This document shows positions 3,698 through 11,528 of a stretch of DNA of 64,000 nucleotides, in pieces (position 1 is the first letter of the stretch; the number at the start of each line of letters is the position of its first letter). This stretch comes from Giardia intestinalis (taxonomy: Eukaryota), in the NCBI GenBank assembly GCA_000002435.2, contig CM018793.1. The stretch is one strand, 5' to 3'. Both the position numbers and the translations under genes were made by a program. The notes below the pieces were generated by a model. It saw only the letters and a program-made list of their open reading frames with translations. It was not told the DNA's origin and did no database searches.

Positions 3698-6600
3698 TTA
3701 CACAGGCATGTCACGAAAATCTACCGTTGCATCATTGTCACTCTTTAGAAGTTCAATTGGAGTATTTCTATAAAAGGTATCTGCTGCCATTACACTGAAA
3801 ACCATATTAGGTGTGATATCGAAGACTTTTAAGAACGTAGCAAAGCTTCTATTAGTTTGCAGAGACTCAGCCGCCTTCAGATAGACGTTTTTATTCCAGC
3901 GAGTAATGTTGCCGACATCAAATACAAAGTCGTCTCTAGAGATATTGTTCTCGCACATCAGGTGTCGGATGTAAAAAGTCTGAGTCTCGTTTATCCCCAG
4001 ATGAAGGTCCACAATTCTACGAACTGTGCTGTGAGTGTAGATATCGCGTACAGCACTGGTAGCATTTGATGATTTGCCCACCAAACCTCTTTCTTCCTTA
4101 CTTTCGCTGTCTCGGAGTGACTGAATGTCTCTGGTACTGTTGCAAAGCAAAGCTTCCAGTCTACCTCTTAGGCCCAGGGCAGCCATAGGCTTCATATACT
4201 GCTGTGTTGACGTTTTGGAGTCGTGCTGCATAACGGTGTATAGCGCCTCTATGATTACATTTTGTATAACCGTTATCCTCACATGAACAATTGACGAATT
4301 GGATAGAGCAGGATATCGCGAGACTGACTTCAGAAGCTCTGCAAGCTGTGGAGTAAGCATGTCTACTGTGCCGCGATAGATAACTAGGAGCTTTTTCTTA
4401 TTCTGCCGGCAGTTTTCCATCTGCCAAATAGCCGGGCCTCCTATCCCTTGGGCTGCCGTAGATGGAAGATCACTATAACTGAGGAACAGAGGCTCTTCTC
4501 TGGAACATATAGGTCGGTAAACCTGCGCATACTCGTCTCCTATGTAGATATTTTCCAGCCACCTGACCATCAAGCGCTCGATTCCCCCAATACAACGGAA
4601 AAGCTTGGCCAAGCAGTCCAGTGCGATATAGACTAAAAGGTAATATCGGTCAGGGCCCCCATGTGTCTGATTAGATGTTTGTTGGCTAGAAGACACAAGC
4701 ACCTTGTGCAATTTGCTGACAAATACGTTTAGGCAAACGAAGCAGCGTTTAATGTTTTCTTCAACGCCCGTAGATTCTTTAATCAGCTCTATCGCACACT
4801 GCGAGAGGTACAGCACATAGTAGTTAATCAGGACCTTAGCTATTAGCGGTATCTTTTGATATTCTTCTGAGGAAGCATCAGCTATGGATGTTTCTAAACA
4901 GCCGGTAATGATGAATAATAGTTCATTTATGAGGGTGCTGCTCAAGTACTTAGTCCCCTTGCTTGTCAAGTAGACTACTAAGAGCCCACATATACAAGAG
5001 CATTCTATAGCAGAGCAGGTGGAAGACTGAGAGGCATCCTTTTTGATAAGTGCAGCAACCATGTTATTCGCTAGAACATGAGAGCATCTTTTGCTGTGAA
5101 AGTACATCAAGAAAGTTGTTTCAAAGATAGATAGCTTTACGCACTTAAGGGCAATGGACATGCACGCCTCGCTGGTATCTATCTGATCAGTAAAAGATTC
5201 TGAATAGGATATAATGGCTACATGCAGATATGATTTGAGGCAAGTGATGCATGAATTGGCAATCTCAGTTGACTGCTTAGGGGATGTGGTGTCGCCCTTC
5301 TCTGCCTCATTGCAAAGCCATCCTCGACCTGCTATCAGGCTCAGGTAGCACTCAACACCCTTATCAATGAGGCCCCATATTTCTTTCTCCATGACCTCTC
5401 TTGACTTAAGGTTTGGATCTGTCACCATGATATAGGGGTGTAGATTCACGTCCTGTATCATGAACTTTATGAAGCGGGGCATGTTGGCATGGAGTAGGGC
5501 TCTTTTAGCGTCATCCATGCTGCCATACTCTTCGCTCTGGCTTGCTCCAGTAAACGCTATTTTGAGAATCTGGAGGACTATCTCTTGCCTCGCCAAGGTT
5601 TCGTGCATAATTGGCGTTGATTGGGATAAGTCCCTGAGCATCTCAAATACATTGTCCATTGTGAAGATTTGCAGGACATTCCCTTCAGATATGCTCTTCT
5701 TCATCTCCTGAATGGGATGCTTTGAAGACAGAATAGAGAAGTACGTAAGATATGGACACACCATCTGTATGTCTTGCAGAGCAGTTAGCAGGATAGTCAT
5801 CGTGTAACCGTCATCTATAGAGCAAAGACCCTCGGGGTTGGTCTGTCCTGCTGGGTAGGAGTAGTGCTGATGTATCTGGTCAAGACACTTTGCAGGCATC
5901 AAGATTCCGCTTTCTAGAAGCATTGTGGTTGTTTCTCCAGACGGACACAGAGTGGAGGCAGAGTCAGAGATGGAATGCAGCGACCGTGCAGACGCAGAGA
6001 TGCCTGTGGTACTGGATTTCTCAAGCTCGTCGACCTCGATACTACTTGGTAGTGCCAGCTCGTTGGCCCCATCCTTTATGGAGCTCTCAATATCAGACGG
6101 CGGTATCAAATGCCCGACAATACCAGAAGAACCCGAAAGCTTTGATAACCGTGCTTCTACAAAATCAAGCATCGTTTTCAGCTGGCACACTCTATCCGAT
6201 GATCGGAGCTTTTCAACCGTAGCATTAAAGGACGGATCCGGCTCGACGAGTAGTTTGGTGCAGAGTTTAGAGTATATGGAAGCCAGAGACTGCAGGTCAC
6301 AGTAAATATTATCAGATTGAGAATCTGTTCTCAATCCATAAAAGGTTAATTTTAGCTGACCATTAGGATACCGGTAAATGGACGAAGGAGTGAGGAGCCC
6401 ATGACTATACGGAATATCGGGATCTTTCTTACGAAGTGTCGTTAGCACTTTGTACAGCTCCTTGAGGGCTTCAAGGATCTGCTTACAAAGCTTGTAGATA
6501 TATGCCATCTTATCAATGGGATCAAGGTCCATTAGTCCACGGACTCCCTGAGATTGCTTAGTGTCATTATCTGAAAAGAGGGTCTCTAATGTAGATACTC

Positions 6601-6832
6601 CCTTAGTTGCTTTGATATTTGGGTAAAGCCGTACTGAAGTAATGTTATCTGATGTTTTGTACTTTTTAGCTCTATAATATAATAGGAAGCGTGAATCTTT
6701 TATAAGCCTTGAAGAACTCCAAGAAGAGAGAGACTCAATGTCCGAAGCATCTCCGGGCATAGACACGCTTTTAAACTTACTGCCGCGAATGCAAGCATTT
6801 GTGGGAATGAGAACGTGATAGGTTGTGGACAT
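3698..6832 (-). CDS. Large hypothetical protein (~1044 aa from first ATG; track ORF to 6841 starts with GTG)
   Basis: 3.1-kb uninterrupted ORF with ordinary Giardia-like codon usage. Antisense ORFs are short. No confident domain assignment. Confidence 0.55.
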   Translation of the reverse strand: MSTTYHVLIPTNACIRGSKFKSVSMPGDASDIESLSSWSSSRLIKDSRFLLYYRAKKYKTSDNITSVRLYPNIKATKGVSTLETLFSDNDTKQSQGVRGLMDLDPIDKMAYIYKLCKQILEALKELYKVLTTLRKKDPDIPYSHGLLTPSSIYRYPNGQLKLTFYGLRTDSQSDNIYCDLQSLASIYSKLCTKLLVEPDPSFNATVEKLRSSDRVCQLKTMLDFVEARLSKLSGSSGIVGHLIPPSDIESSIKDGANELALPSSIEVDELEKSSTTGISASARSLHSISDSASTLCPSGETTTMLLESGILMPAKCLDQIHQHYSYPAGQTNPEGLCSIDDGYTMTILLTALQDIQMVCPYLTYFSILSSKHPIQEMKKSISEGNVLQIFTMDNVFEMLRDLSQSTPIMHETLARQEIVLQILKIAFTGASQSEEYGSMDDAKRALLHANMPRFIKFMIQDVNLHPYIMVTDPNLKSREVMEKEIWGLIDKGVECYLSLIAGRGWLCNEAEKGDTTSPKQSTEIANSCITCLKSYLHVAIISYSESFTDQIDTSEACMSIALKCVKLSIFETTFLMYFHSKRCSHVLANNMVAALIKKDASQSSTCSAIECSCICGLLVVYLTSKGTKYLSSTLINELLFIITGCLETSIADASSEEYQKIPLIAKVLINYYVLYLSQCAIELIKESTGVEENIKRCFVCLNVFVSKLHKVLVSSSQQTSNQTHGGPDRYYLLVYIALDCLAKLFRCIGGIERLMVRWLENIYIGDEYAQVYRPICSREEPLFLSYSDLPSTAAQGIGGPAIWQMENCRQNKKKLLVIYRGTVDMLTPQLAELLKSVSRYPALSNSSIVHVRITVIQNVIIEALYTVMQHDSKTSTQQYMKPMAALGLRGRLEALLCNSTRDIQSLRDSESKEERGLVGKSSNATSAVRDIYTHSTVRRIVDLHLGINETQTFYIRHLMCENNISRDDFVFDVGNITRWNKNVYLKAAESLQTNRSFATFLKVFDITPNMVFSVMAADTFYRNTPIELLKSDNDATVDFRDMPV

Positions 6833-7357
6833 AGGCCACACAAAGTATTTTTAAAATTGGGATAAGTAATTATGCTATGCTACCTATCAGTGTGTGGAGC
6901 ACAATGAAGTCGGAAATGCACGAGCCAGCATATGGAAGGATGCCATGCACAACTGCCTGATTGTTCTTTATTGAAGTGATTGACATTGATAGAAGGTCTA
7001 ATGATAATGATTTACAAGGAAAAACTTTGATGAAGTACTGATGCCTGGAGACTCGAGCAAAGGCATAATATATGCCGCTGTTCAGTACCATCCCTTGTAC
7101 CCCCCAAAGCTAGATGTCGAAAGACTGCCGATCTATATCAACCCCAGACGCCTAAGCACTCTGACGAATTACCTCGAAGCCACTGACAAGGACTTGACTG
7201 CAGCGCTCAAGCGACGATTGATCCCTGTCGCTGGCAACGCTCAGCCAGCACACGGTAGCCGGCATGTAGACCCTGCTACCTCATGCTCGGCGGTACAGAC
7301 ACTCAAAAAAACGCTGTTGTGAATTTTTTGAACAGGATATTAAAAAGTAACGGGGAG

Positions 7358-8878
7358 ATGTCCAAGGCCCAAAAGGTGAAGAGTAACAAGGTTCATTTCT
7401 TCAGCTTCGACTGGAATATACCCTCGTTCCTTACTCTGCCCAAGATTACGCGCCAGATAGACGATGATGTGCGCAAGGAAGTCATCATCGTGCCTGCAGA
7501 CACTGTCATTGCCGGATCGGTCGTAGTCAGCAACTCCGGAGGAAAGAGCCTTGCTTATGACTCTGTTGTCGTCGAACTACAGGGAGTTGTTGAGACTAAC
7601 GACGAGCAGGCCATTCGCCTTCCATTTTTCTCCGTTGCAAGGATAGCCAAGGGTGCAGGGACCCTCACATATCCCGAAACGTTCGGGTTCGATTTCTCCG
7701 GGAACACGCTCCCCTGTGAGACTATTAACGCGATGGATGCTGCGTTCTGCATAAAGTACTTTCTAGTCTGCACTCTGAAGACCAAGACTGGCAATTACTC
7801 TGGAGATACAGAGTTTGCTTGTCTGAAGTACCTTCCTAAACCGCTAGAGACCATCCCCATCAGGACGGAAATAGGAGTGGAGGACACTCTGCAACTGGAG
7901 CTGGAACTCAACAACACGTTCCTTGACATTTCAAGGGACATGCTGGTTGGGCGCGTTCACTTTGTGCATGCGGCCAAGAAGCTGGAAGAAATGGCCATTA
8001 TCATTAGAAGGAGGGAGCTCTTCCGTAAGAGCAAGAGCTCTACGGAGTGGTTCGCCTCTGCCTGGCACGACATACACTACTACGATATCATGGAAGGTGC
8101 CCCAACTCGCGAGGAAGTCATACCGTTCAGAATATACATGTCAAACTTGCAACTATCTCCATCCTTTAGTACAGATATTGCAAAACTAGAGTATGCGGTC
8201 GTCCTTTCGCTGATCGATTCGGAGAGTAGGAGCTACTTCCGGTCACACGAGCTCACGCTCTATAGAGGCTTCCCAGACGGGAAGGAAGCCGGAGAGCAGA
8301 ATATCAACCCGCCAGTGGATCAAGCTATGTCAACAGCAGGAGGTGCCCGCTACGAGACCCAGGTTTCTTTCCCTGGAGCTGCTGCCCCGTCCACAGCCAT
8401 GCCCTACGGCGATCCTACAGCTGGCTTGTCATCCATGATGCCTCAGGCGGGTGTGCCTCAGCAGCAACCTCAGTATGGAAGTGCATATGGTGGAGGATAC
8501 GGCGCTGGGATGGCGTACGGCGCTCCCCAGCCACACCATTCCGGGCCTGTCTCTGGGGCTGCCATGCCTGTTGGGCCAGGGCCGCAACAGTACCAACAGT
8601 TTGGAAACCAGCAGGGGTCTCAGATGCCTCCTCCTATTCAGCCCCAAGGGCAGCTAGGCGCTGCTACCATCCCTTCAGTCACTTCCGTTGAAGCTACGCC
8701 CCAGATAGGATCAACACCAAGTGGCCCTTATGGCGCACCTCCCCCACAATCTTCGATGTACGGTGATGCTTATAAGTCAGAGGGCTCTGGGATGGCAAAC
8801 CCTTATGGCACTCCTAGTTTTAGTCAGAATCCCTATGGCAATCCCTATGGTGCCTCGACTGGTCTGTACGGTTCGTAG
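7358..8878 (+). CDS. VPS26: Vps26 (retromer, arrestin-fold) with a long G/Y/P/Q-rich C-terminal extension
   Basis: Strong collinear similarity to eukaryotic Vps26 (e.g. EIGVEDTLQLELELNN...VGRVHF...IMEGAPTREEVIPFRIYM...YFRSHELTLYR against human EVGIEDCLHIEFEYNK...VGKIYF...IMDGAPVKGESIPIRLFL...YFKQQEIILWR). The ATG at 7358 sits directly behind AT-rich 'atattaaaaagtaac'. The track's upstream ATG at 7283 lacks an AT-rich initiator. The C-terminal ~200 aa is low complexity (NPYG/YG repeats). Confidence 0.85.
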   Translation: MSKAQKVKSNKVHFFSFDWNIPSFLTLPKITRQIDDDVRKEVIIVPADTVIAGSVVVSNSGGKSLAYDSVVVELQGVVETNDEQAIRLPFFSVARIAKGAGTLTYPETFGFDFSGNTLPCETINAMDAAFCIKYFLVCTLKTKTGNYSGDTEFACLKYLPKPLETIPIRTEIGVEDTLQLELELNNTFLDISRDMLVGRVHFVHAAKKLEEMAIIIRRRELFRKSKSSTEWFASAWHDIHYYDIMEGAPTREEVIPFRIYMSNLQLSPSFSTDIAKLEYAVVLSLIDSESRSYFRSHELTLYRGFPDGKEAGEQNINPPVDQAMSTAGGARYETQVSFPGAAAPSTAMPYGDPTAGLSSMMPQAGVPQQQPQYGSAYGGGYGAGMAYGAPQPHHSGPVSGAAMPVGPGPQQYQQFGNQQGSQMPPPIQPQGQLGAATIPSVTSVEATPQIGSTPSGPYGAPPPQSSMYGDAYKSEGSGMANPYGTPSFSQNPYGNPYGASTGLYGS

Positions 8879-8924: not shown

Positions 8925-11528
8925 ATGGAAACTGAAGCCGCTCGCGAGCTCGAGCGTGTGCAGAAGGAGAACTTCACCTTGAAGCTCAGGGTGTTTTCTC
9001 TGGAGCAGGAGCTTCACCCAGACCGTTCAACCGGCAAAGAGGCAGCCTTTGCATCTGAAATCAGTACGGAGATAGAAAAGAGGGACCAACTTCTTCTCAA
9101 AGCAAAATTGTCCATACAGTCTCTTTCCTCTGAGAACGACACCCTCCGCCATCGCCTCCAGTCAGTGGAGACGCTCCTTTCAGAGACAGAGACTCAGGCT
9201 TTAGAATGGAAGCAACGAGTGTCTGCATTTGATGCAGAAAGCGTGCTAAGGGGCAAGCAGGCAGAGTCTGCGCAGAATAACTTCAAACTAGCATGCCAAC
9301 AAATAGAAGAGCAGAAGCAGAAAATCAAGCAGCAGCACTATCTCATTTTACAACTTCAGAACAAGCTGAATCCATCCACTGGGGTCCCATCTGCTCCTCA
9401 GCCAGGCGGAGCAAGCACTGCAGGCCTCACGCAAGATGAAAGCGAGTGCCTTTTAGAGGACATAGGCGTTCAGTGGCGAAGGTATGTCTCTTCATTAGAG
9501 GTAAAACACGCAGAAGAGTTAGATGCAATCAAGAAAGGACATCAGCAGCAGCTGGAGCGCTTCTTCCAGGGGAAAAATAGCGAAATAGAAACATTTCAAA
9601 AGGATTACGCACAGCTTCAGGAGACAATCTTCGGATTGAGAAATCAGAACGCTGATCTGCATCGTGTGGTAGAAGATATGAAGCTTCAGGAGGACCAGTT
9701 CCGCCAGACAGCAGAGCACTTCAAAAATGATTCTATGGAGAAGGCGGGACAAATACAGCAGCTCAAGCTCGCATTAGGAGAGGCAGAAGATATAAAGATG
9801 CATGCGCAGTCTCTGCAGGCGGCTAATTCGTCTTTGGCAGATCAAGTTTCCGACCTCACCAGTAGAATTGAAATTCTTATCAGAGAGGCGTCCGATCGTG
9901 TGGCCGAAATCTCAAATCTCCATAGTGAAAAACTAACACTGGAGACCAGGGCAAAGCAGGCAGACACGCTTGAAAAGACGTTAGAGGCCAGAAGTACAGA
10001 ACTAAGCGAGCTACGGCGCGACAATATCAAGTACCAGGAAGACAATAAGGCTCTCTTTTTAGAAGTTGAACACCTGAGGATGGTGGCCAGCTTTGTACCA
10101 GAGAAGGAGGAGACCATAAGAAAACAACTTGAAATGATTACCGAGCTGCAAAACATCAACGTCCAAAATTCCTATGAAATTAATTCTTTGAAGGATACAG
10201 TTGCCAGTCTCAGTGCAAAGGAGGTGACAATAGCAGCTCTTACCAAGCAGCTGGAAACGGCAGATGCAGAGCTAAAGAGGCGCCAGATGGACTCTGTGGA
10301 GCTGACGAATCTGCGCTCAACTAACGACCAGGTGATGCTGGAGCTCACAAAGCTCCGAGCAGATCACGCCAGCGCTGGACGAGAGCTCAGAGAAATCAGG
10401 GAGGCTCATGATACCCTCAAGGCACTGCACAGTCAAGTGACCATGGAGGCCGACACTAGATCATCGGAGCTAACCGCAGAGCTGACTGCTTATAAAGCAC
10501 AGGCTTCCCAGCTGAAGACAAGAGTTGCAGAGCTGGAGCTGCAAGGGTCTTCCTTAAAGGCAGAGCTGGACACCGCTCTGGCCCATTTAGAGAGCAGAAC
10601 AAAGGATATTGAATTCGTCAAGACTGAAAAGTGCTCCTCAGAGAGGATTCTCACGGAGTATCGAGAGAATTTGAAAAGGCAGGAGCAAGAATTTGAGGCC
10701 ATGATGACTGAGCAGAATGAACGCATAGCAACGCTTGGGAAAGAGCTTGACAGCGTTTCCATTACGTTTCGTTCTGCATGCAAGGCTGTGGAGGACATGT
10801 CCGTGAGGCTACGTGTCAGTAAGATAACAAACGTGAAAACCCTTGAAGACATTCTCAGTATTACCTCAGCCGTAATTCGGCGGCACGAAGGAGTTCTTGC
10901 GGAGCTGGATGCGTCAAATACTCGAACATATGAGATCCAGCTGAAAGCCGACCAGACCCGCAGCGAGCTGGCTAGAGTCAAGAAGGAGCTGGACTACTGT
11001 AACGGAGAGATCGAGGGAAAGGACAAACGCACACGGGAGTATCTGGCGGAGATAGATACGCTAAACAGATCGATAGAAGGCATGCGGCAAGAGGTTTCTG
11101 TTGCAGAGAAGAATCTGAAGGAGGCTCTTGACCAGCGGTCAAAGCTCAAGACATATAACAATGAATACAAAGATAAAATTGCCCGTCAGGAACTAAGAAT
11201 CACGAGTTTGCAAGAAAAGATAAAGTCCCAGGAGGTTCTAGTGGCAGAGCGAGTTAAAGAGATCGAGCTTAGCATGCAACGCCAGGTCAAGACATTTCTA
11301 GACGCCATGACCGATCACATCTCTCGAAGGGTATCTCCAGAGATTGCCTTATCAGAGATCAAGCGATTCGAGTTAATCTTTTTGTCGACAGAGGATGCAC
11401 TTAACCGGCAACACGTACGGATCGGCGAGCAGCTCAATCCTCCCGCAGATCTACTGAACGATCCCCTCTTAGGGCATAATTTAGGCCCGGGTGTCCTGAT
11501 ATCTAGTAATGTTAGACCTGTTCTGTAA
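8925..11528 (+). CDS. Coiled-coil protein, 867 aa
   Basis: ATG at 8925 after 'caaattttattag'. Heptad-rich, E/K/Q/L-rich sequence throughout. Confidence 0.6.
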   Translation: METEAARELERVQKENFTLKLRVFSLEQELHPDRSTGKEAAFASEISTEIEKRDQLLLKAKLSIQSLSSENDTLRHRLQSVETLLSETETQALEWKQRVSAFDAESVLRGKQAESAQNNFKLACQQIEEQKQKIKQQHYLILQLQNKLNPSTGVPSAPQPGGASTAGLTQDESECLLEDIGVQWRRYVSSLEVKHAEELDAIKKGHQQQLERFFQGKNSEIETFQKDYAQLQETIFGLRNQNADLHRVVEDMKLQEDQFRQTAEHFKNDSMEKAGQIQQLKLALGEAEDIKMHAQSLQAANSSLADQVSDLTSRIEILIREASDRVAEISNLHSEKLTLETRAKQADTLEKTLEARSTELSELRRDNIKYQEDNKALFLEVEHLRMVASFVPEKEETIRKQLEMITELQNINVQNSYEINSLKDTVASLSAKEVTIAALTKQLETADAELKRRQMDSVELTNLRSTNDQVMLELTKLRADHASAGRELREIREAHDTLKALHSQVTMEADTRSSELTAELTAYKAQASQLKTRVAELELQGSSLKAELDTALAHLESRTKDIEFVKTEKCSSERILTEYRENLKRQEQEFEAMMTEQNERIATLGKELDSVSITFRSACKAVEDMSVRLRVSKITNVKTLEDILSITSAVIRRHEGVLAELDASNTRTYEIQLKADQTRSELARVKKELDYCNGEIEGKDKRTREYLAEIDTLNRSIEGMRQEVSVAEKNLKEALDQRSKLKTYNNEYKDKIARQELRITSLQEKIKSQEVLVAERVKEIELSMQRQVKTFLDAMTDHISRRVSPEIALSEIKRFELIFLSTEDALNRQHVRIGEQLNPPADLLNDPLLGHNLGPGVLISSNVRPVL

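What the first reader, a model, noticed from the sequence alone, without database searches (positions are those of the whole stretch)
7358..8878. Retromer Vps26 carrying a ~200-aa low-complexity G/Y/P/Q-rich tail with NPYG/YG repeats
The arrestin-fold core aligns along its whole length with eukaryotic Vps26, which is typically about 300-340 aa. Here the ORF continues for about 200 more residues of low-complexity sequence (...QYGSAYGGGYGAGMAYGAPQP...NPYGTPSFSQNPYGNPYGASTGLYGS). The tail resembles prion-like or FG/YG segments and the ALG-2/ESCRT-binding PYxxxY regions of ALIX/annexin-type proteins. In a reduced endomembrane system this may be a lineage-specific interaction module on the retromer cargo-selective subunit.
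Basis: seen in the sequence. Interest (0 to 1): 0.5.

Follow-up and report, generated by a model that had tools for sequence, protein, structure and literature searches.

The report
Giardia Vps26 with tyrosine-rich disordered tail
The retromer subunit Vps26 of Giardia intestinalis really does end in a conserved 200-residue floppy Gly/Pro/Gln/Tyr-rich tail that close relatives lack; the gene is already annotated, but no paper I could read describes the tail, and its role (probably a multivalent docking or clustering region) is untested.

Summary
Window 7358..8878 (+) is one uninterrupted 506-codon ORF, identical to RefSeq XP_001704251.2 (Vps26, G. intestinalis WB, GL50803_100864). Residues 1-306 are a Vps26 arrestin-fold core (Pfam 1e-29; solved Vps26 structures 2e-28). 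Residues 307-506 form a tail of G17 P15 A12 Q11 S10 Y7 %, with 6 % charged residues and no predicted structure (pLDDT about 30).

It is not a frameshift or a missed stop. Three other G. intestinalis lineages and G. muris keep the tail in frame at the syntenic locus. Tail dN/dS is 0.13-0.21, against 0.003-0.02 for the core. Tyr, Gln and Gly are the conserved residues. NPY occurs 3-4 times (9 in G. muris) against 0.06-0.26 expected.

The tail is lineage-restricted. Two unidentified GC-rich Giardia-like relatives (syntenic), Hexamita, Spironucleus and Anaeramoeba all end at about 290-317 aa. The free-living fornicate Aduncisulcus has a tail of the same composition (QGYG repeats) that does not align with Giardia's.

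ALG-2, ESCRT, EH and clathrin motifs are absent.

My best reading is a multivalent Tyr-motif interaction or self-association region on a retromer that lacks sorting nexins. The function is inferred, not shown. Interest is moderate: a new variant of a known kind.

The parts
7358..8878 (+). Complete Vps26 coding sequence: 506 codons plus TAG. This is GL50803_100864 / XP_001704251.2.
   Evidence: ORF list. Exact database match. Gene id VPS26_100864 is used in PMC12548405.
7283..7357 (+). In-frame upstream extension of 25 codons from ATG 7283. The older annotation (531 aa, XP_001704251.1) used it, but it is probably not translated. The stretch 7320-7349 is AT-rich (tgaattttttgaacaggatattaaaaagta), like a Giardia initiator region.
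   Evidence: The annotated P15 and G. muris proteins start at MSKAQK/MSRASK, and the gene calls for both GC-rich relatives start at the aligned MKSAVK. That AT-rich elements mark Giardia promoters is from general knowledge.
7358..8275 (+). Arrestin-fold Vps26 core, residues 1-306, ending ...LTLYRGFP. It includes the IMEGAPTREEVI loop (residues 244-255), which aligns with the Vps35-binding loop of mammalian VPS26.
   Evidence: Pfam PF03643 on residues 35-289. PDB Vps26 alignments. The AF2 model is all-beta with 19 strands, and its top Foldseek hits are Vps26 chains at E=6e-17. dN/dS is 0.003-0.02.
8276..8875 (+). C-terminal low-complexity tail, residues 307-506. Composition G17 P15 A12 Q11 S10 Y7 %. 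Predicted to be disordered.
   Evidence: Composition and motif statistics. pLDDT 28-35 and no secondary structure. dN/dS 0.13-0.21. GC rises to 0.60-0.61 here.
8348..8356 (+). R331-Y-E333. It is RYE or RYD in three of the four G. intestinalis lineages. It might echo the QRF/YE motif of mammalian VPS26 tails. This is a weak lead only.
   Evidence: The motif is described in PMC8635440. It is absent from lineage P4 and from G. muris.
8399..8530 (+). First tyrosine patch, residues 348-391: MPYGD...QYGSAYGGGYGAGMAYGAPQ. The run YGGGY (8486-8500) is invariant.
8585..8602 (+). QQYQQF, residues 410-415. QQYQQ is invariant among the G. intestinalis lineages.
8603..8722 (+). Spacer rich in Q/P/S/T, residues 416-455. 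It makes up most of the 43-residue interval between F415 and Y458, the longest aromatic-free stretch of the tail.
   Evidence: largest aromatic gap is 43 residues.
8723..8875 (+). C-terminal PYG/NPYG cluster, residues 456-506. GPYGA (8723-8737) is invariant. NPYG copies lie at 8798-8809, 8828-8839 and 8840-8851. The last two are a perfect 12-nt tandem repeat (AATCCCTATGGC). Copy number differs between lineages by in-frame indels.
   Evidence: alignment.

Best explanation
This is the genuine Vps26 subunit of the Giardia retromer trimer. Its canonical arrestin-fold core (residues 1-306) is followed by a translated, intrinsically disordered 200-residue tail.

The tail most likely arose once, in the common stem of G. 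intestinalis and G. muris. Since then it has evolved quickly by substitution and by in-frame gain and loss of short repeats. Selection has preserved its composition and its tyrosine motifs: P-Y-G/A, mostly as N-P-Y-G/A, plus x-Y-G.

The mechanism I consider most likely is as follows. The tail is a flexible, multivalent 'sticker' region. Its 5-10 PY[GA] motifs make many weak contacts, either with a partner domain not yet identified or with other Tyr/Gln/Pro-rich regions, its own included. This would concentrate or anchor retromer at the peripheral endocytic compartments. Giardia lacks the usual recruiting and coat-forming partners: sorting nexins and WASH/FAM21 according to the literature, and Rab7 from general knowledge.

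Shown here: the protein's identity, the continuity of the ORF, conservation, purifying selection, motif enrichment, predicted disorder and phylogenetic distribution.

Inferred: that the tail binds anything, what it binds, and the link to the missing partners.
For: - Identity and core: Pfam and PDB matches, and an exact RefSeq match.
- The tail is real coding sequence. It is in frame in WB, P15 and two Logan lineages (79-92 % identity) and in G. muris. All sit upstream of the same Cnn_1N coiled-coil gene.
- Selection: tail dN/dS is 0.13-0.21 at dS 0.5-2.5.
- Selection acts on stickers and composition. Among the four G. intestinalis lineages, 11 of 17 Tyr columns are invariant against 79 of 309 other columns (Fisher P=0.001). 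By residue, invariance is Y 79 %, Q 77 %, G 74 %, against A 17 %, S 29 %, V 0 %.
- Motif enrichment: NPY occurs 3-4 times in G. intestinalis and 9 times in G. muris, against 0.06-0.26 expected. PYG occurs 5-7 times against about 0.4.
- The G. intestinalis and G. muris tails keep weak positional similarity beyond composition (z=2.7, P=0.003).
- Disorder: pLDDT about 30 and no secondary structure for residues 305-506.
- Lineage restriction: tail-less syntenic orthologues in two GC-rich relatives, and in Hexamita, Spironucleus and Anaeramoeba. The NJ tree gives (G. intestinalis + G. muris) 100 % bootstrap support, sister to the GC-rich pair.
- Context: sorting nexins, WASH and FAM21 are reported missing in Giardia and the role of its cargo-recognition trimer is unknown (PMC8552679). 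Vps26 is recovered in pulldowns of an ARF paralogue that associates with peripheral endocytic compartments (bioRxiv 10.1101/2025.10.20.683495).
[quoted passage not shown] The short mammalian VPS26 tails are functional regulators (PMC8635440).
Against: - No partner is known.
- No established short linear motif class fits. There is no NPF, DP[FW], PPxY, YPxxL or clathrin box in any tail, no ALG-2 motif, and no P[ST]AP in G. intestinalis.
- The aromatic residues are not evenly spaced, unlike well-studied phase-separating prion-like domains.
- A dN/dS of about 0.2 is also compatible with selection merely to stay soluble and disordered.
- Two close relatives and the Hexamitinae do without a tail, so it is not needed for basic retromer function.
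- I have no protein-level evidence (mass spectrometry or immunoblot) that the tail is present in the mature protein. The one paper likely to show it (Miras et al. 2013) was not held.
Confidence: 0.5

Rival explanations
1. The tail is tolerated, largely functionless extra sequence. It would have arisen by loss of a stop codon and repeat slippage, and selection would only keep it disordered, soluble and harmless.
For: It evolves roughly 10-70 times faster than the core in dN/dS. Only 28 % of tail columns are invariant against 89 % in the core. Repeat copy number varies between lineages, and there is a perfect 12-nt tandem repeat. Close relatives lack a tail altogether. Disordered C-terminal extensions of quite different compositions occur on many Vps26 homologues.
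Against: dN/dS is well below 1 at saturating dS. Tyr, Gln and Gly are preferentially conserved. NPY is retained, and even multiplied, in G. muris although the rest of the tail is almost unalignable. A tail of the same composition sits on Aduncisulcus Vps26.
Confidence: 0.22
2. The tail is an enlarged version of the autoinhibitory tail of mammalian VPS26A/B. It would fold back on the Vps26-Vps35 interface and gate cargo or adaptor binding.
For: In human, zebrafish and Chaetomium Vps26, a short disordered tail with a QRF/YE motif weakens binding of SNX3 and cargo (PMC8635440). The Giardia tail has R-Y-E/D at residues 331-333, about 25 residues after the fold, in three of four G. intestinalis lineages.
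Against: There is no QR[FY]E in any tail. The RY[ED] motif is missing in lineage P4 and in G. muris. Hexamita and Spironucleus have no tail, so the ancestral motif was probably lost before the Giardia tail arose. Giardia is reported to lack sorting nexins, so SNX3 would not be there to be gated (PMC8552679). This idea also does not explain 170 further residues or the repeated NPYG.
Confidence: 0.1
3. The tail is a binding platform for a small GTPase, analogous to the Entamoeba Vps26 extension that binds Rab7A. It would recruit retromer to membranes.
For: The Entamoeba precedent (PMC2575791, citing Nakada-Tsukui 2005). Giardia Vps26 co-purifies with an ARF1 paralogue (ARF1FB1), and the authors state that all three ARF paralogues and ARFGAP1 interact with retromer components, with Rabs in the same pull-downs.
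Against: No sequence comparison with the Entamoeba extension was possible. That paper was not held, and no Entamoeba sequence was identified among the hits. Giardia has no Rab7 (general knowledge). GTPase effectors usually bind through folded or helical elements, and none is predicted in the tail. The co-purification data do not map to the tail.
Confidence: 0.1
4. The tail is an artefact of assembly or annotation: a frameshift, a missed stop or intron, or a fusion of two genes.
For: The more distant orthologues stop right after the fold. An older annotation of this same gene had a wrong start.
Against: The same continuous frame appears in independent assemblies of at least five Giardia lineages, including a chromosome-level WB assembly and G. 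muris. All indels are in frame. Substitutions follow the pattern expected for this coding frame. The next gene starts only 46 nt after the stop.
Confidence: 0.02

Closest known systems
Canonical Vps26 (human/mouse VPS26A/B, Chaetomium Vps26; Pfam PF03643)
   Same: The two-lobed arrestin-like core aligns end to end (residues 33-306 against 23-291 of chain 6h7w_J). The IM[DE]GAP loop that contacts Vps35 is conserved.
   Different: The canonical proteins end 0-35 residues after the fold, in a short tail carrying QRF/YE (PMC8635440). This protein has 200 more residues of G/P/Q/Y-rich sequence and no QRF/YE.
Entamoeba histolytica Vps26 with a long C-terminal extension (Nakada-Tsukui et al. 2005, as cited in PMC2575791)
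   Same: A gut protist with a reduced retromer system and no SNX partners, whose Vps26 carries a long lineage-specific C-terminal extension used for recruitment.
   Different: That extension binds Rab7A, and Giardia has no Rab7 (general knowledge). Its sequence could not be compared here. Nothing is known about what the Giardia tail binds.
Aduncisulcus paluster Vps26-like protein GKT23809.1 (464 aa)
   Same: A fornicate relative. Its Vps26 core is followed by a 168-residue tail of nearly the same composition (P17 G17 Q14 Y11 A10 S8 %), with 11 YG dipeptides.
   Different: The repeat unit is QGYG/GYG, not NPYG. There is no NPY at all, and no alignable similarity beyond composition (z=0.8-2.1). 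Parsimony on the sampled taxa favours independent origin.
Prion-like Gly/Tyr/Gln/Pro low-complexity domains (Sup35 N-domain PQGGYQQYN repeats, FUS [G/S]Y[G/S] domain). These comparisons are from general knowledge.
   Same: Composition dominated by G, Q, P, S and Y, with very few charged or aliphatic residues. Tyrosines are the conserved positions. Predicted disorder.
   Different: Only 1-2 strict [GS]Y[GS] triplets. Tyrosines are clustered in three patches rather than evenly spaced. The tail is attached to a membrane-coat subunit, not to an RNA-binding protein or a translation factor. No aggregation or condensation data exist.
ALG-2-binding proline-rich regions of ALIX, annexin A7/A11 and Sec31A
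   Same: A Pro/Gly/Tyr-rich disordered region on a membrane-trafficking protein.
   Different: The defining motifs PPYPXnYP and PXPGF (PMC4346919, PMC3397542) are absent from all the tails. Whether Giardia has a penta-EF-hand protein at all was not established.

Membership tests
Vps26 (retromer cargo-selective trimer subunit, PF03643) | Sequence match to the family profile above the curated threshold | tested here: met
   PF03643, 103.7 bits against a cutoff of 27, E=1.1e-29, profile positions 25-274 of 275.
Vps26 (retromer cargo-selective trimer subunit, PF03643) | End-to-end alignment with solved Vps26 structures, and an arrestin-like all-beta two-lobe fold | tested here: met
   phmmer against the PDB gives E=2e-28 over residues 33-306. 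The AF2 model is all-beta. Its best Foldseek hits are Vps26 chains (E=6e-17), then VPS26C, then arrestins. Model quality is low (core pLDDT about 50-85, TM 0.35) because the alignment had only 8 sequences.
Vps26 (retromer cargo-selective trimer subunit, PF03643) | Conserved Vps35-binding loop in the C-terminal lobe (human VPS26A residues about 235-246, IMDGAPVKGESI; numbering from memory) | tested here: met
   Giardia residues 244-255, IMEGAPTREEVI, align with it. M245, E246, G247, P249-E253 and P256 are invariant across all Giardia-clade sequences.
Vps26 (retromer cargo-selective trimer subunit, PF03643) | Physical assembly with Vps35 and Vps29 | not testable with these tools
   The title of Miras et al. 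2013 reports a giardial multimeric retromer complex (cited). The paper was not held.
Mammalian-type autoinhibitory VPS26 tail | A QRF/YE motif in a short disordered C-terminal tail | tested here: not met
   No QR[FY]E in any tail. Only RYE/RYD at residues 331-333 in three of four G. intestinalis lineages. Motif definition from PMC8635440.
ALG-2 (penta-EF-hand) binding proline-rich region | Type 1 motif PPYPXnYP / PXYPXnYP, or type 2 motif PXPGF | tested here: not met
   Zero matches in the WB, P15, P3, P4, G. muris and Aduncisulcus tails. Motif definitions from PMC4346919 and PMC3397542.
ESCRT / Nedd4 'late-domain' type motifs | P[ST]AP, YPxnL or PPxY | tested here: not met
   None in any G. 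intestinalis tail. G. muris has three P[ST]AP within a P/A/T-rich run, against 0.5 expected.
EH-domain and endocytic-adaptor ligands | NPF, DP[FW] or a clathrin box L[LI][DEN][LF][DE] | tested here: not met
   All counts are zero. The repeated motif is NPY, not NPF.
FUS-like / prion-like low-complexity domain | G/S/Q/N/Y-rich composition, few charges, predicted disorder | tested here: met
   G+P+Q+S+Y+N+A is about 75 % and charged residues are 6 %. pLDDT is about 30.
FUS-like / prion-like low-complexity domain | Many [G/S]Y[G/S] triplets and evenly spaced aromatic residues | tested here: not met
   1-2 strict triplets per Giardia tail, against 11 in Aduncisulcus. The spacing coefficient of variation is 0.82-0.98, no lower than in shuffles (P=0.4-0.74).
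FUS-like / prion-like low-complexity domain | Self-association, condensation or amyloid formation | not testable with these tools
   Needs recombinant protein or live-cell imaging.
Entamoeba-type Vps26 recruitment extension | A long lineage-specific C-terminal extension on Vps26 | tested here: met
   200 residues beyond the fold. Precedent in PMC2575791.
Entamoeba-type Vps26 recruitment extension | Sequence relatedness to the Entamoeba extension, and GTP-dependent Rab7 binding | not tested
   No Entamoeba sequence was at hand, and the source paper was not held. Binding needs experiments.

The most novel reading that the evidence does not exclude
Tyrosine-rich G/P/Q tails were acquired independently on Vps26 in Giardia and in the free-living fornicate Aduncisulcus. 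They act as a self-associating (condensate-like) or partner-clustering domain. This would let a retromer stripped of sorting nexins, and in Giardia of Rab7 and WASH, assemble or concentrate on membranes: a coat organised by a low-complexity domain instead of by SNX-BAR scaffolds.
Probability: 0.12. Interest if true: 0.7.

Novelty: new variant of a known kind. Interest (0 to 1): 0.35.

Why it matters
Giardia keeps the Vps26-Vps29-Vps35 trimer, but it is reported to lack the sorting nexins and the WASH/FAM21 machinery that normally recruit and organise it. The role of the trimer is described as unknown (PMC8552679).

A conserved add-on on the cargo-side subunit, specific to this lineage, is an obvious handle for finding out how the minimal retromer is anchored at the parasite's peripheral endocytic compartments. 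The handle is practical: deleting residues 307-506, or mutating about 14 tyrosines, is a simple experiment.

Two comparisons help. The tail-less close relatives offer a natural control. The look-alike tail in Aduncisulcus hints that the solution may have arisen more than once.

On the other side, the gene and its full length are already in RefSeq. Disordered tails on Vps26 are common. Nothing here shows a function. The finding is therefore a useful lead rather than a surprise.

Tried and rejected
- Word-indexed homology searches with the full protein, the core alone and a 12-sequence fornicate/eukaryote profile returned only 5-7 Giardia-clade proteins. Wider sampling came only from the exhaustive HMMER search, which carries no names. 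Two cluster look-ups named a few hits. No Kipferlia, Carpediemonas, Chilomastix, Trepomonas or Entamoeba sequence was identified.
- The two key papers were not held: Miras 2013 on Giardia retromer and Nakada-Tsukui 2005 on Entamoeba Vps26. Papers that mention Giardia Vps26 say nothing about the tail.
- I tested for evenly spaced aromatic residues, a hallmark of phase-separating prion-like domains. The result was negative.
- I tested ALG-2, ESCRT, EH, AP-2-appendage, clathrin-box, NPxY/NxxY and YxxPhi motifs. None is conserved. The only YxxPhi match is a single YQQF, found in two lineages.
- I looked for a decayed tail downstream of the stop in the GC-rich relatives. L004 has only 120 nt before the next gene. 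The 458-nt spacer of L001 has one or no tyrosine codon in each frame. It shows only a weak P/A-rich resemblance to the G. muris tail in one frame (z=3.2 among 12 comparisons), which I judged unconvincing.
- I checked whether a TAA/TAG=Gln genetic code could extend the 'tail-less' orthologues. Read-through gives no Y/Q-rich sequence, and in L004 it runs into a second stop.
- The AF2 model came from only 8 sequences and is low quality (mean pLDDT 49, inter-lobe geometry poor, rmsd about 14 Å to Vps26 structures). I used it only for secondary-structure class and tail disorder.
- The two GC-rich organisms could not be identified (SRR14944320/21/25 and SRR31929897).
Full report
**1. What is in the sequence**

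The region holds one open reading frame on the + strand, 7283..8878. It gives 506 codons and a TAG stop at 8876-8878.

This 506-aa protein is letter for letter XP_001704251.2 / KAE8304819.1, 'Vacuolar protein sorting 26 [Giardia intestinalis]', found on a 4.0-Mb contig. The older record XP_001704251.1 (531 aa) started at 7283. Recent literature calls the gene VPS26_100864 (PMC12548405).

The start at 7358 agrees with the annotated P15 and G. muris proteins and with the aligned gene-call starts of both GC-rich relatives. An AT-rich stretch lies directly upstream of it.

So the window is G. intestinalis assemblage A (WB). The gene, tail included, is already annotated.

**2. Core**

- Pfam Vps26 (PF03643) matches residues 35-289, covering profile positions 25-274 of 275, at 103.7 bits against a cutoff of 27.
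- Solved Vps26 chains from Chaetomium, mouse and human align over residues 33-306/322 at E=2e-28 to 1e-22.
- An AF2 model built from 8 sequences is all-beta with 19 strands and only moderate confidence in the core. Its best Foldseek hits in the PDB are Vps26 chains (E=6e-17), then VPS26C, then arrestins. The TM-score is poor (about 0.35), so I use the model only qualitatively.
- The loop IMEGAPTREEVI (residues 244-255) aligns with the IMDGAPV[KR]GESI loop of mammalian VPS26. From memory, this is the Vps35-binding loop. It is almost invariant across the Giardia clade.

**3. Tail**

Residues 307-506 (nt 8276-8875) follow the last strand (...LTLYRGFP). The composition is G17 P15 A12 Q11 S10 Y7 %. 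Charged residues make up 6 % and ILVFWC 8.5 %, against 24 % and 33 % in the core. Local GC rises to 0.60-0.61. AF2 gives pLDDT 28-35 and no secondary structure over residues 305-506.

Compared with 2000 composition-preserving shuffles:

| Motif | Observed | Expected |
|---|---|---|
| YG | 11 | 2.35 |
| PYG | 5 | 0.36 |
| NPY | 3 | 0.06 |
| NPYG | 3 | 0.01 |

No shuffle reached any of these observed counts.

The tyrosines fall into three groups, with one more, Y332, nearer the fold (see section 8):
- residues 348-391 (MPYGD...QYGSAYGGGYGAGMAYGAPQ);
- residues 410-415 (QQYQQF);
- residues 456-506 (GPYGAPPPQSSMYGDAYK...NPYGTPSFSQNPYGNPYGASTGLYGS).

A 43-residue interval with no aromatic residue lies between F415 and Y458. 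The last two NPYG copies are a perfect 12-nt tandem repeat at 8828-8850. No other ORF in the 64-kb window has a comparable stretch.

**4. Artefact or coding sequence?**

Orthologues were recovered from G. lamblia P15 (520 aa), two further G. intestinalis-like lineages from public read assemblies (511/554 and 523 aa; 79-92 % identity) and G. muris (627 aa). All lie directly upstream of the same Cnn_1N-like coiled-coil gene. All carry the tail in the same frame, and every length difference is an in-frame indel.

Nei-Gojobori estimates among the G. intestinalis lineages give dN/dS of 0.003-0.02 for the core and 0.13-0.21 for the tail, at dS of 0.5 to more than 2. The tail is therefore translated sequence under purifying selection, although the constraint is much looser than in the core.

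**5. What selection preserves**

Only 28 % of tail columns are invariant among the four G. intestinalis lineages, against 89 % in the core. Conservation is uneven:
- 11 of 17 tyrosine columns are invariant, against 79 of 309 other columns (Fisher P=0.001).
- By residue type, invariance is Y 79 %, Q 77 %, G 74 %, P 43 %, against A 17 %, S 29 %, T 30 %, M 22 %, V 0 %.

The G. muris tail is longer (321 aa) and richer in P and A. It is barely alignable: local alignment gives z=2.7 over shuffles, P=0.003. Yet it contains nine NPY motifs (NPY[A/Q/S]) against 0.26 expected.

The persistent features are therefore the disordered G/P/Q matrix and the repeated P-Y-[G/A], mostly N-P-Y-[G/A].

**6. Distribution**

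Two groups of contigs from public read sets carry clear syntenic orthologues: SRR14944320/21/25 and SRR31929897. Both are about 67 % GC. Both have the same downstream coiled-coil gene, with the conserved opening RELERLQKENFNLKLRI.

Their proteins are 54-59 % identical to the window protein. They end at 313 and 317 aa, two residues after the YRGxP that closes the fold. Reading through the stop, as a TAR=Gln code would allow, yields no Tyr/Gln-rich sequence. In L004 the next gene starts 120 nt later. The 458-nt spacer in L001 shows no convincing relic of a tail.

The exhaustive HMMER search, with names, adds:
- Hexamita inflata (297 aa), no tail;
- Spironucleus salmonicida (286 aa), no tail;
- Anaeramoeba flamelloides (303 aa), no tail.

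A neighbour-joining tree of the cores gives these bootstrap values:
- G. intestinalis + G. muris, 100 %;
- the two GC-rich sequences together, 80 %, as sister to that pair;
- the whole Giardia-like clade, 100 %;
- diplomonads, 100 %.

On this sampling, one gain in the G. intestinalis/G. muris stem is the most parsimonious history.

One striking exception outside the diplomonads is Aduncisulcus paluster, a free-living Carpediemonas-like fornicate. Its Vps26-like protein (464 aa) has a 168-residue tail of almost the same composition (P17 G17 Q14 Y11 A10 S8 %), built on QGYG (6 copies) and GYG (10 copies). It has no NPY, and its alignment to the Giardia tails is no better than to shuffled sequence (z=0.8-2.1). 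Two independent gains cost two steps. An ancestral tail with losses costs at least three. The sampling is thin, so this stays open.

Other Vps26 homologues with long C-terminal extensions exist: a flatworm, Chlorella and several unnamed ones. Their tails are acidic, Ser/Thr-, Ala- or Gln/Asn/Met-rich. A disordered tail on Vps26 is therefore common. This particular composition is not.

**7. Comparison with known motif classes**

- The published ALG-2 motifs (PPYPXnYP or PXYPXnYP; PXPGF; PMC4346919, PMC3397542) are absent from all tails.
- PPxY, YPxxL, NPF, DP[FW], NPxY and a clathrin box are absent from every tail. P[ST]AP is absent from all G. intestinalis tails and occurs only in G. muris, as three copies in a P/A/T-rich run.
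- Only 1-2 strict [G/S]Y[G/S] triplets occur, and aromatic spacing is no more regular than chance. The tail resembles prion-like domains in composition, Sup35-N more than FUS (from memory), without meeting their finer hallmarks.

**8. Known biology that bears on function**

- In mammals and Chaetomium, the short disordered Vps26 tail with its QRF/YE motif weakens binding of SNX3 and cargo at the Vps26-Vps35 interface (PMC8635440). Giardia has R-Y-E/D at residues 331-333 in three of four lineages, but no QRF/YE, and nothing there in G. muris.
- In Giardia, sorting nexins, WASH and FAM21 are reported absent and the role of the trimer is described as unknown (PMC8552679). Vps26 and Vps35 are recovered in pulldowns of ARF-family proteins that associate with peripheral endocytic compartments (bioRxiv 10.1101/2025.10.20.683495).
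- None of the papers I could read mentions the tail. The original Giardia retromer paper was not available.

**9. Interpretation**

The secure part: this is a bona fide Vps26 with a conserved, disordered, lineage-restricted C-terminal extension. Its tyrosine motifs and G/Q content are under selection.

The inferred part: the tail works as a flexible multivalent region. Its PY[G/A] motifs either engage a partner that is still unknown or associate with similar regions. This would help to recruit or cluster a retromer that has lost its usual organisers.

I put this at about 0.5. The main alternative is a tolerated, essentially functionless extension (0.22). After that come an enlarged autoinhibitory tail (0.1) and a GTPase-binding platform (0.1). 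An artefact is effectively excluded (0.02).

**10. Verdict**

The protein is already in the databases, and tails on Vps26 have precedents. The finding is therefore a new variant of a known kind and of moderate interest. The most useful new points are the tail-less syntenic relatives, the selective conservation of Tyr, Gln and Gly and of NPY, and the look-alike tail in Aduncisulcus.

Noticed in passing
window 8925..11528 (+): An 867-aa coiled-coil ORF starts 46 nt after the Vps26 stop. It has a near-threshold match to the centrosomin N-terminal motif Cnn_1N (27.5 bits against a cutoff of 28.5). The gene pair is syntenic in every Giardia lineage examined and in both GC-rich relatives.
   Followed up: partly
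window 3698..6841 (-): A 1047-aa ORF with no Pfam match. Genes of 1044/1045 aa sit at the same upstream position in the P15 and P4 loci; I did not compare their sequences with the window ORF.
   Followed up: no
L001/L002/L003 (SRR14944320, -25, -21) and L004 (SRR31929897): Contigs from two unidentified organisms with about 67 % GC. Their Vps26 locus is syntenic with Giardia's. In the Vps26 tree they branch as sister to G. intestinalis + G. muris. They may be undescribed or unsequenced Giardiinae.
   Followed up: partly
P0060 (Aduncisulcus paluster GKT23809.1), residues 297-464: The Vps26-like protein of a free-living fornicate carries a P/G/Q/Y tail with six QGYG and ten GYG copies. The composition nearly matches the Giardia tail, but the two tails do not align.
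   Followed up: partly
window 7283..7357 (+): The 25 codons upstream of the accepted start are in frame, and the older RefSeq version included them. They are also conserved at the protein level in one other lineage (P0003). I attribute this to low divergence rather than to translation.
   Followed up: partly
L001 6943..7400: An unusually long (458 nt, 71 % GC) spacer follows the tail-less Vps26 of one GC-rich relative. One frame is P/A-rich and weakly resembles the G. muris tail (z=3.2), but it has no tyrosines.
   Followed up: partly
P0048 (ENA metagenome contig, 362 aa): Another Vps26 homologue with a different low-complexity tail, rich in Gln/Asn/Met (…MQQQMIMNSQMFMNMMQNQGQNPGNMQM…). It shows that compositionally odd tails recur in this family.
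   Followed up: no
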